Assembly: GCF_006345805.1 (NCBI RefSeq)
Contig: NC_043005.1
Coordinates: forward strand, 37,944,001-38,008,000
Direction of reading: 5' to 3'
DNA: 64,000 nucleotides
Origin: Octopus sinensis
Lineage: Eukaryota
In this document: one piece after another, positions 52,985 through 54,001 of the stretch
How the letters are laid out: each line of letters begins with the position of its first letter
How positions within the stretch are numbered: position 1 is the stretch's first letter
Program-made: the position numbers

Positions 52985-54001
52985 GCGAGAAAGAAGCAAC
53001 AAGAATGGATAGGTTTAGTACGATCGTTTCATACAAGGACAGGTTTTATTAAAGGTTGCAAAGATTTCAGCATATAAACGAGTCCCGTACTCATCAGCTA
53101 AAATACATGTGAGTTCTCTAGACATCCTAGTGTTTGAGGCTATACTCATGAAGTAATGTAGATAATTAAGTAACATAAACAGATTCTAAAGTTCATTAAA
53201 GTTCTTTAAAGATGATGTACAGTCTTATCACAGAATTTTAAAAAAGTTTTGATAGCATCACAGAGAAGGTGACCTAATCCATATGCATTTCCATAGATAT
53301 GATGAGGGATTATATACTCACAGAAGACAAATTTATCCATTGTTAATTACAACGAGGTGGGTCTCAATTCCTGCTTATTAGCATTACAGAGAGGTGAATT
53401 AATCCTTTGTATAGATGCACAAATTCCAATGGTGTAGATGTAAATTTGGAATTTGTGCATCTATACAAAGGATTAATTCACCCTCTCTGTAATGCTAATA
53501 AGCAGGAATTGAGACCCACCTCGTTGTAATTAACAATGGATAAATTTGTCTTCTGTGAGTATATAATCCCTCATCATATCTATGGAAATGCATATGGATT
53601 AGGTCACCTTCTCTGTGATGCTATCAAAACTTTTTTAAAATTCTGTGATAAGACTGTACATCATCTTTAAAGAACTTTAATGAACTTTAGAAATCTGTTT
53701 ATGTTACTTAATTATCTACATTACTTCATGAGTATAGCCTCAAACACTAGGATGTCTAGAGAACTCACATGTATTTTAGCTGATGAGTACGGGACTCGTT
53801 TATATGCTGTAATCTTTGCAACCTTTAATAAAACCTGTCCTTGTATGAACGATCGTACTAAAACCTATCCATTCTTGTTGCTTCTTTCTCGCTTATAATC
53901 ACCCCACATTACTGTATTGTTAAATCAGTATAGTTTTTTTTGGTGCATCTAGTTAGGTACCATATTCAAGTAAATTCATTTAAATAACTGAATTATTGCT
54001 C

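What the first reader, a model, noticed from the sequence alone, without database searches (positions are those of the whole stretch)
52985..54000. Near-perfect 908-bp palindrome carrying two outward-facing hammerhead ribozymes, inserted in a SINE microsatellite
Seen: two ~445-bp arms about 99% complementary around a 16-nt spacer. A complete hammerhead lies near the distal end of each arm (53014-53103 on -, 53774-53863 on +), followed by a ~108-nt unpaired extension. The unit splits one SINE at its (TATC)/(TA) tract, and no coding capacity is recognisable. Known: Penelope-like elements carry hammerheads in their pseudo-LTRs and often integrate 5'-truncated with an inverted copy; retrozymes are non-coding hammerhead retroelements. 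Inference: this is a very recent insertion of a hammerhead-bearing, possibly non-autonomous retroelement family that targets TA microsatellites. Transcription from either strand would give a long hairpin with a ribozyme near its 3' end.
Basis: partly seen in the sequence, partly recalled or inferred. Interest (0 to 1): 0.85.

Follow-up and report, generated by a model that had tools for sequence, protein, structure and literature searches.

The report
Inverted Penelope-type hammerhead retroelement insertion
This is a real, young, head-to-head double insertion of a short non-coding retroelement end that carries a hammerhead ribozyme motif, sitting in a TA repeat inside an older repeat, and it fits a pattern already described for Penelope-like elements, so it is fairly ordinary.

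Summary
The palindrome is real. Arms 52985-53429 and 53446-53892 surround a 16-nt spacer and differ by 1 substitution and 4 one-base indels. A 109-nt tail (53893-54001) lies on the right only. The unit splits a SINE-like repeat inside its (TATC)n/(TA)n tract; in 10 of 10 other copies examined the halves lie 7-95 nt apart.

Only the left arm (minus strand, 53014-53103) has a complete type I hammerhead core. The right copy lacks one A of the GAAA box. Rfam scores are below threshold (18.1 and 14.4 bits; cut-off 34).

Four features match published Penelope-like element (PLE) insertions: an inverted 5'-truncated copy, a one-sided tail, a (TA)n target, and a hammerhead with a 2-bp helix III and palindromic loop near the 3' end (PMC8557442, PMC4209133, PMC11167929).

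There is no ORF with a family match and no second copy in the window. No eukaryotic genome collection was available, so copy number, the autonomous partner and helix covariation are untested. A read-through RNA folds into a 445-bp hairpin that buries the ribozyme.

Verdict: new member of a known kind, low to moderate interest.

The parts
52632..52850 (-). Downstream half of the interrupted SINE-like repeat (sense on the minus strand)
   Evidence: Matches 15 other places in the window at 69-88% identity. In 10 of 10 other copies examined it is followed within 7-95 nt by the other half.
52861..52984 (.). Left part of the target microsatellite: (TATC)n running into (TA)n
   Evidence: TRF finds period 4, 30.8 copies, 52861-52982. 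The sequence was read directly.
52985..53429 (-). Left arm: inverted copy of the element's 3' part without the tail. Its sense strand is the minus strand
   Evidence: 98.7% to the right arm. It ends at ...CUCGC, next to a TATA that the right copy also has at 53894-53897.
53014..53103 (-). Type I hammerhead motif with an intact core. Helix I 5 bp; helix II 9 bp with one bulge and a 41-nt loop; helix III is A-U plus C-G capped by the palindromic loop GAUC. Predicted cleavage falls between 53019 and 53018
   Evidence: Rfam RF00163: 18.1 bits (cut-off 34), E 0.038 in a 126-nt search, model 1-45 of 45. It is the only hit of the strict descriptor in the window. The helices were checked.
53430..53445 (.). 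16-nt spacer at the centre of the palindrome
   Evidence: pair I10, 16 nt between the arms; hairpin loop.
53446..53892 (+). Right arm: copy of the element's 3' part. Its sense strand is the plus strand
53774..53863 (+). Second hammerhead copy with a broken core: GAAC instead of GAAAC. It also has one extra A in the 3' strand of helix I and one substitution in the helix II loop
   Evidence: alignment. Rfam RF00163: 14.4 bits, E 0.64, with a gap in the GAAA box. The strict descriptor does not find it.
53893..54001 (+). One-sided tail of 109 nt, contiguous with the right arm only
   Evidence: It has no counterpart beside the left arm, no Rfam match at E up to 10, and no other copy in the window (best match 35 nt at 77%, E 0.1). 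No plus-strand stop-to-stop frame of 25 aa or more begins inside it before 53984.
54002..54068 (.). Right part of the target microsatellite, (TA)n
   Evidence: TRF finds period 2, 34 copies.
54066..54235 (-). Upstream half of the interrupted SINE-like repeat
   Evidence: Matches 19 other places in the window. It carries a B-box-like GGTTCAGTCCC (read directly; the box consensus is recalled). ARAGORN calls no tRNA in the window.

Best explanation
This is a genuine and evolutionarily young insertion made by the machinery of a Penelope-like element (PLE). What was inserted is either the 5'-truncated 3' end of a hammerhead-bearing PLE or a short non-coding derivative of one. It consists of about 447 nt plus a 109-nt tail, together with a second, inverted copy of the same 445 nt, joined head to head.

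Shown:
- the palindrome and the one-sided tail;
- the (TA)n target inside an older SINE-like repeat;
- the lack of any ORF with a family match;
- one canonical-core type I hammerhead about 35 nt from the arm's outer end, and a second copy with a one-base deletion in its core.

Inferred from published PLE biology:
- The element's GIY-YIG endonuclease cut the AT-rich target.
- cDNA synthesis started inside the RNA at two alternative sites. The copy started at the distal site kept the tail. The copy started at the proximal site did not; that site is next to an internal UAUAA that can pair with the TA target.
- The two copies were joined at their 5'-truncated ends either by snap-back of the cDNA on itself or by a template switch.

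The locus is dead on arrival and has no evident function. If transcribed through, it would give a 445-bp double-stranded hairpin rather than an active ribozyme. The hammerhead is a passenger motif of the family. By its helix III it is of the kind thought to work only as a dimer or with protein help.
For: Anatomy: (arms, spacer, tail, single locus in the window).

Target: (repeat split inside its microsatellite; 10 of 10 other copies examined are uninterrupted).

Hammerhead:
- RF00163 matched over its full length with the same helices I drew by hand;
- 1 hit in the window, against 1 of 100 simulations with any hit;
- the true core and box give 3 hits under a relaxed descriptor, against a mean of 0.019 and a maximum of 1 over 719 decoy core/box permutations on the same window.

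Literature:
- PMC8557442 (passages): PLE insertions are highly 5'-truncated, often with an inverted 5'-truncated copy adjacent. A tail is often present at one end only. Hammerheads lie near the 3' ends. (TA)n is a preferred target.
- PMC8557442 section 11: almost all Hydra-clade families insert into (TA)n and have canonical hammerheads.
- Its supplementary tables: they list an Octopus bimaculoides Hydra family with a (TA)n preference and a hammerhead starting 104 nt before the consensus end.
- PMC4209133 (parts 1-2): metazoan type I hammerheads have a 1-2 bp helix III with a 2-4 nt palindromic loop. Paired motifs on opposite strands 100-700 bp apart were ascribed to truncated PLEs.
- PMC11167929 (parts 1-2): a purified PLE protein cleaves and extends both DNA strands and starts reverse transcription at two internal sites whose interval is the tail. 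Its hammerhead cleaves only with protein present.

Youth: the arms are 98.7% alike, whereas the host repeat is 69-88% identical to its other copies.
Against: - No reverse transcriptase or GIY-YIG frame lies in the locus. Of the 32 stop-to-stop frames of 110 aa or more in the window, the 7 I scanned gave no Pfam match.
- There is no second copy in the window, so 'family' is unproven.
- Rfam scores are well below the gathering cut-off. The motif was not reported at all in the whole-window search or the 1.7-kb search.
- Position 10.1-11.1 is G-U, where PMC4209133 calls G-C highly conserved.
- The hammerhead fold is not the minimum-energy fold (-8.3 against -15.8 kcal/mol). The 106-nt stretches fold no better than shuffles (z -0.70 and -0.88).
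- The tail is 109 nt, against the 30-40 nt described.
- The letters of the hammerhead differ from the one octopus hammerhead-bearing PLE printed in the supplement. Two motif strings from this locus occur 0 times there.
- That the window is cephalopod is recalled from the look of the repeat and comes from no call.
- Four of the five differences between the arms are homopolymer-length differences, which could be consensus errors.
Confidence: 0.7

Rival explanations
1. A single 5'-truncated copy (arm plus tail) was inserted first. The left arm arose later at the DNA level, by a fold-back inverted duplication during replication or break repair, independent of the retroelement's enzymes.
For: The palindrome is symmetric to within 16 nt, which self-templated copying gives automatically. 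The left arm ends at a TATA shared with the TA tract, which fits a microhomology join.
Against: It needs two events where the published PLE insertion pattern explains everything with one (PMC8557442). The duplication would have to stop exactly at the arm-tail border and leave both halves of the host repeat in place.
Confidence: 0.1
2. A foldback-type or MITE-like DNA transposon with very long terminal inverted repeats and a TA target duplication. The hammerhead-like motif is then a chance or decayed feature.
For: If the tail is ignored, the palindrome is bordered by TA on both sides (TATA|CGCGAG... and ...CTCGCT|TATA). There is no coding capacity.
Against: - The 109-nt tail lies between the right arm and the rest of the (TA)n tract. 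None of the 10 other copies of the host repeat has it, so it would need a separate insertion at the same spot.
- The hammerhead descriptor is far above chance.
- Rfam aligns the full type I model.
Confidence: 0.07
3. An assembly artefact: a chimeric fold-back long read, or a mis-join, created the second arm.
For: Four of the five differences within the arms are one-base homopolymer-length differences, the commonest long-read consensus error. PMC8557442 notes that these structures often cause assembly problems.
Against: The palindrome is internal to the window. Both halves of the host repeat flank it in the right order and orientation. The arms are asymmetric, with a tail on one side only, whereas a simple fold-back read would mirror the tail and the flank too. 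The arms also differ by a substitution.
Confidence: 0.07
4. A member of the animal non-LTR retrozymes: a circular-RNA-forming, tandemly repeated, hammerhead-bearing non-autonomous element.
For: It is non-coding, has low GC and carries a type I hammerhead with a weak palindromic helix III. A 2026 preprint argues that animal retrozymes derive from PLE pseudo-LTRs (10.64898/2026.07.22.740005, abstract and section 14).
Against: The defining direct tandem arrangement is absent. TRF finds only the microsatellites in 52500-54500. The self-comparison shows only one 28-nt internal repeat. The two copies are inverted, not head to tail.
Confidence: 0.06

Closest known systems
Insertions of endonuclease-positive Penelope-like elements, especially the TA-targeting, hammerhead-bearing clades (Hydra, Neptune), as described in PMC8557442
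   Same: An inverted 5'-truncated copy adjacent to the main copy, an extension at one end only, insertion into (TA)n, and a hammerhead close to the 3' boundary. The supplementary table of that paper lists a Hydra family with these traits in Octopus bimaculoides.
   Different: No RT/GIY-YIG ORF and no pseudo-LTR tandem are present here. The tail is 109 nt rather than 30-40. The hammerhead letters and its 41-nt helix II loop differ from the printed Hydra-1_oBim motif. Clade membership cannot be assigned without an ORF.
Metazoan type I / PLE hammerhead ribozymes (Rfam RF00163; PMC4209133)
   Same: Type I topology, a CUGAUGA...GAAA core, a 2-bp helix III with a palindromic 4-nt loop that would extend to an 8-bp helix in a dimer, and a helix II longer than usual. 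Motifs also occur in pairs on opposite strands a few hundred bases apart.
   Different: The score is below the Rfam gathering cut-off. Position 10.1-11.1 is G-U instead of G-C. There is a very large insertion in helix II (52 nt in the Rfam alignment). One of the two copies lacks a core base. No covariation or cleavage data exist.
The PAc (Poseidon, Anolis) in vitro system (PMC11167929)
   Same: It offers a mechanism for exactly this layout. Both target strands are cleaved and extended. Two internal start sites define a tail. The target is AT-rich. The hammerhead is inactive without protein and dispensable for insertion.
   Different: That is a vertebrate Poseidon element whose hammerhead overlaps the ORF start, with a 30-40 nt tail. 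Nothing here shows that the same enzyme properties apply to the element that made this locus.
Animal non-LTR retrozymes (PMC7229834; preprint 10.64898/2026.07.22.740005)
   Same: Small, non-coding, AT-rich units with a type I hammerhead of weak helix III, probably mobilised by PLE enzymes.
   Different: Retrozymes are direct tandem repeats that give circular RNAs. This locus is an inverted pair with no direct repeat.

Membership tests
Hammerhead ribozyme, type I (RF00163) | Conserved core: C3-U4-G5-A6-N7-G8-A9, G12-A13-A14, the A15.1-U16.1 pair, and H17 at the cleavage site | tested here: met
   Met by the minus-strand copy at 53014-53103. NOT met by the plus-strand copy at 53774-53863, which lacks one A of GAAA.
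Hammerhead ribozyme, type I (RF00163) | Three helices around the core, with helix I open (type I) | tested here: met
   Helix I has 5 bp (6 in the right copy). Helix II has 9 bp with one bulge. Helix III has 2 bp plus the loop GAUC. The Rfam alignment gives the same layout.
Hammerhead ribozyme, type I (RF00163) | Score at or above Rfam's gathering cut-off (34 bits) | tested here: not met
   18.1 and 14.4 bits. There was no hit in the whole-window search or the 1.7-kb search.
Hammerhead ribozyme, type I (RF00163) | G10.1-C11.1 closing pair of helix II (called highly conserved in PMC4209133) | tested here: not met
   It is G-U here. The printed Hydra-1_oBim motif also departs from G-C.
Hammerhead ribozyme, type I (RF00163) | Helices kept by compensatory changes among homologues; self-cleavage | not testable with these tools
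   No homologous copy is in the window. No eukaryotic genome collection was available and no bench work was possible.
Penelope-like element insertion | ORF with a telomerase-like reverse transcriptase and a GIY-YIG endonuclease, in this copy or in a full-length relative | tested here: not met
   Not met for this copy: 5 arm frames gave nothing above a Pfam cut-off. Of 32 window frames of 110 aa or more, 7 were scanned, with 0 families. A full-length relative elsewhere in the genome could not be sought.
Penelope-like element insertion | 5'-truncated copy with an adjacent inverted 5'-truncated copy | tested here: met
   The copies lie head to head. The hammerhead sense strands point outward, so both 5' ends meet at the centre. 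That they are truncated rather than full-length short units is inferred.
Penelope-like element insertion | Tail extension present at one end only | tested here: met
   109 nt on the right side only. This is longer than the 30-40 nt in PMC8557442 and PMC11167929.
Penelope-like element insertion | Hammerhead motif near the 3' end or in the pseudo-LTR | tested here: met
   The motif ends 29 nt before the arm end and 138 nt before the tail end.
Penelope-like element insertion | AT-rich or (TA)n target (Hydra, Naiad, Neptune clades) | tested here: met
   (TA)n lies on both sides. A target duplication cannot be read within a microsatellite.
Animal non-LTR retrozyme | Direct tandem repeats of the hammerhead-bearing unit | tested here: not met
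   TRF and the self-comparison show no direct repeat of the unit.
Foldback / MITE DNA transposon | Matching inverted termini at both outer ends, flanked by a target duplication | tested here: not met
   The outer ends of the inserted block (52985... and ...54001) are not inverted copies of each other, because the tail has no partner.

The most novel reading that the evidence does not exclude
The locus may be a natural footprint of double-ended target-primed reverse transcription by a dimeric PLE particle. In that reading, both cut ends of the TA target primed cDNA on two separate RNA molecules held together through the palindromic helix III of their hammerheads. One cDNA started at a distal start site and the other at a proximal one, 109 nt apart. 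The two arms would then have been different at birth. This would explain why 3 of their 5 differences fall inside the 90-nt hammerhead, the most variable part of such families. It would also make the unit a member of an undescribed short non-autonomous PLE-dependent family with an unusually long helix II.
Probability: 0.15. Interest if true: 0.5.

Novelty: new member of a known kind. Interest (0 to 1): 0.25.

Why it matters
The locus is a clean, young and almost undecayed example of the inverted, one-tailed insertion form of Penelope-like elements, whose mechanism is still being worked out. The exact arm-tail border, the internal TATA at that border and the 16-nt centre are the kind of junction data that can discriminate between snap-back, template-switch and two-ended priming models, but only once many copies of the family are compared. 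By itself it adds one more instance to a documented pattern. A 445-bp perfect hairpin is also a potential source of double-stranded RNA and a fragile site, and it is a trap for assemblers and repeat annotators.

Tried and rejected
- Rfam at gathering score on the whole window found 0 matches. At E up to 10 on 52600-54300 there were 41 weak matches and no hammerhead. The top ones were microRNA-precursor models that simply fit the palindrome centre, all far below their cut-offs.
- Rfam on the tail found 0 matches.
- Single-strand folds of the 106-nt hammerhead stretches are no more stable than shuffles. The predicted homodimer does not use the extended helix III.
- Pfam on 5 arm frames gave only DUF223 (17.3 bits, cut-off 24.6) and Hemopexin (13 bits, cut-off 21.3), both rejected as noise.
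- The exhaustive protein search with the 75-aa frame across the hammerhead found 10 proteins at E up to 0.001 and 0 at 1e-10, all with 4-7 matched stretches. The best, P0001, is a fourfold internal repeat whose single-stretch match is 12 of 34 identities at 27 bits. I rejected it as a summed weak match and did not look for its source.
- Strings from this hammerhead were searched in the supplementary archive of PMC8557442 and occur 0 times.
- A full-text search for 'hammerhead ribozyme' with 'octopus' found 5 papers. Of the 4 listed, none beyond the PLE survey itself deals with the subject, judged from the listing alone.
- Not done: a scan of genome contigs, which holds bacteria and archaea only and is irrelevant here. 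The supplements of the bioRxiv preprint are closed and may hold retrozyme consensus sequences that bear on family assignment.
- Typing PLE protein sequences from the supplement for a tblastn against the arms was left out, because only the session's own sequences may be typed.

Full report
**1. The observation**

The region holds a near-perfect inverted repeat. The repeat finder reports four collinear pairs of arms: 211 nt at 100%, 158 nt at 99%, and two of 37 nt at 100% and 97%. The innermost pair is 16 nt apart. A gapped alignment joins them into one palindrome: left arm 52985-53429, spacer 53430-53445, right arm 53446-53892.

Inside the arms there are one substitution and four one-base indels, all four in homopolymer runs. 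There is one more mismatch at the outer edge, followed by a shared TATA. Blastn gives 98.7% over 453 columns. The window contains no N.

The right arm runs on for 109 nt (53893-54001) that have no partner on the left. (TA)n lies directly outside 52984 and 54002.

**2. The host repeat**

The flanks are the two halves of one repeat. The left flank matches 15 other places in the window and the right flank 19. In all 10 other copies I printed, the halves are joined by a short (CA)n/(TA)n tract, 7-95 nt by the coordinates. Here 1215 nt separate them.

The repeat is short and non-coding and has a B-box-like GGTTCAGTCCC, so 'SINE' is reasonable. However, ARAGORN calls no tRNA in the window. My impression that it is the abundant octopus SINE is recalled and comes from no call.

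**3. The hammerheads**

Rfam finds nothing at gathering score in the window and no hammerhead at E up to 10 in a 1.7-kb search. When only 126 nt are given, so that the filters are laxer, the type I model RF00163 aligns over its full length to 53013-53103 on the minus strand. The score is 18.1 bits (cut-off 34) and E is 0.038, with a 52-nt insertion in helix II.

The layout on the minus strand is as follows:
- helix I: UUUAG/CUAAA, 5 bp;
- core: CUGAUGA;
- helix II: 9 bp with one bulge, closing a 41-nt loop;
- GAAA box;
- helix III: A-U plus C-G, capped by the palindromic GAUC;
- cleavage site: GUA, with cleavage predicted between 53019 and 53018.

The right-arm copy (53774-53863, plus strand) scores 14.4 bits with E 0.64. 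The alignment shows a gap in the GAAA box. As assembled it reads GAAC, so A15.1 is missing and the core is broken. It also has one more A in helix I and one substitution in the helix II loop. Three of the five differences within the arms therefore lie in the 90-nt motif.

Controls:
- A strict canonical descriptor has one hit in the window, the left-arm motif. One of 100 first-order Markov simulations had any hit.
- A relaxed descriptor has 3 hits. The mean was 0.01 in 100 simulations, with 0 of 100 reaching 3.
- On the real window, 719 decoy permutations of the core and box letters gave a mean of 0.019 and a maximum of 1; 14 of 719 gave any hit.
- The descriptors were written after I had seen the site.

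Against the motif being an efficient ribozyme:
- Position 10.1-11.1 is G-U.
- The hammerhead fold reaches -8.3 kcal/mol, against -15.8 for a competing fold that ties up both core boxes.
- The stretches fold no better than shuffles.

**4. Coding capacity and relatives**

The longest stop-to-stop frame in the arms is 75 aa. None of five frames reaches a Pfam cut-off. An exhaustive protein search with the 75-aa frame gave only 10 weak, multi-stretch matches, none at E 1e-10. The best is a fourfold repeat protein with 12 of 34 identities per stretch, which I discard.

There is no second copy of the arm or tail in the window. The only internal feature is a 28-nt direct repeat at 86% identity, 126 nt apart within each arm. 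No eukaryotic genome collection was available, so copy number, a link to an RT/GIY-YIG ORF and covariation all remain open.

**5. What it is**

Every structural feature has a published counterpart in Penelope-like elements.

PMC8557442 (passages; section 11):
- Insertions are highly 5'-truncated.
- A 30-40 bp tail is often present at only one end.
- Hammerheads lie near the 3' ends.
- (TA)n is the preferred target of Naiads and of almost all Hydra families, and Hydra families have canonical hammerheads.

Its supplementary tables list Hydra-1_Obim (2507 bp, (TA)n target, hammerhead at position 2403) and three octopus Naiads with (TA)n preference. The printed Hydra-1_oBim hammerhead has different letters, and strings from this locus are absent from the archive. 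The present element is therefore not that family, or at least not that consensus.

PMC4209133 (parts 1-2 of 4) describes the helix III seen here, 1-2 bp with a 2-4 nt palindromic loop. It links that helix to action as a dimer and notes low activity in vitro. It also reports pairs of motifs 100-700 bp apart on opposite strands, ascribed to truncated PLEs. Here the two motifs are 670 nt apart on opposite strands.

PMC11167929 (parts 1-2 of 4) shows for one purified PLE protein that:
- both strands of an AT-rich target are cleaved and extended;
- reverse transcription starts at two internal sites, and the tail is the interval between them;
- the hammerhead cleaves only with protein present and is not needed for insertion.

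**6. How it most likely arose and works**

Shown: the anatomy above.

Inferred: a PLE particle cut the (TA)n tract. One cDNA began at the distal start site and gave the tail plus the right arm. The other arm begins at the proximal site, next to an internal UAUAA that can pair with the TA target. The two 5'-truncated ends were joined at the centre.

The symmetry to within 16 nt argues for snap-back copying of the cDNA or a template switch at one point. Two independent cDNAs from two RNAs remain possible, and would explain differences present from birth.

The product has no ORF and one broken ribozyme, so I regard it as dead on arrival. A read-through transcript of either strand folds into a 445-bp duplex with a 16-nt loop (-795.8 kcal/mol for the plus strand). 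In that duplex the hammerhead strand is paired with its antisense. A double-stranded RNA is therefore the expected product, not a hairpin with a working ribozyme.

The arms are far more alike (98.7%) than the host repeat is to its other copies (69-88%), so the insertion is much younger than the repeat.

**7. Rivals**

- Later DNA-level fold-back duplication of a single inserted copy (0.10). It needs two events.
- A foldback or MITE DNA transposon (0.07). The unpaired tail and the hammerhead statistics speak against it.
- An assembly artefact (0.07). The homopolymer differences and the known assembly trouble with such structures speak for it. The correct flanks on both sides and the one-sided tail speak against it. 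Only reads can settle this.
- A retrozyme in the strict sense (0.06). The defining direct tandem is absent. A 2026 preprint (abstract and section 14) argues that animal retrozymes derive from PLE pseudo-LTRs, so the border between the two is soft.

**8. Novelty and score**

The arrangement is in print, and this is one more instance. It possibly belongs to a family not yet described. Unusual details are a 109-nt tail and a hammerhead with a very long helix II and a G-U at 10.1-11.1.

I rate it a new member of a known kind, with interest 0.25. The boldest reading that the evidence leaves open is a footprint of two-ended priming on a hammerhead-linked RNA dimer. I give it 0.15.

Noticed in passing
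window 41511-41582 (+): A second hammerhead-like motif under the relaxed descriptor: AUUU / CUGAAGA / 4-bp helix II with a 46-nt loop / GAAA / 3-bp helix III with loop GAUU / UA / AGAU. A (TG)n(TA)n tract begins about 45 nt downstream. Decoy controls make such hits rare, but Rfam gives no hammerhead at E up to 10. It has no similarity to the arms. It may be an old, decayed PLE 3' end.
   Followed up: partly
window 18226-18260 (-): A third, minimal hammerhead-like motif of 35 nt (GUUU / CUGAAGA / A / GAGC-UUU-GCUU / GAAA / UG / UU / AAAC). It lies in a stretch of about 230 nt bounded by TA-rich microsatellites, next to a SINE-like copy. Rfam gives no hammerhead at E up to 10.
   Followed up: partly
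window 53470-53497 and 53596-53623 (mirrored at 53379-53405 and 53253-53280): A 28-nt direct repeat at 86% identity, 126 nt apart inside each arm. It may be a trace of an old internal duplication in the element.
   Followed up: no
window 53010-53106 (-): GUAU/GUAC occurs four times around the hammerhead. As a result the core boxes can be locked in two local hairpins that are 7.5 kcal/mol more stable than the ribozyme fold. This could be a conformational switch, or simply a sign of a weak ribozyme.
   Followed up: partly
window 99-776 (-): A 225-aa open frame that looks to me like the C-terminal part of a LINE-type reverse transcriptase (recalled resemblance). Pfam gave no match at E up to 0.01.
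   Followed up: partly
whole window: The window is very rich in one SINE-like repeat with an internal (CA)n/(TA)n microsatellite: at least 15 matches to one half and 19 to the other in 64 kb. Long TA/CA microsatellites occur throughout and supply many potential TA targets.
   Followed up: partly
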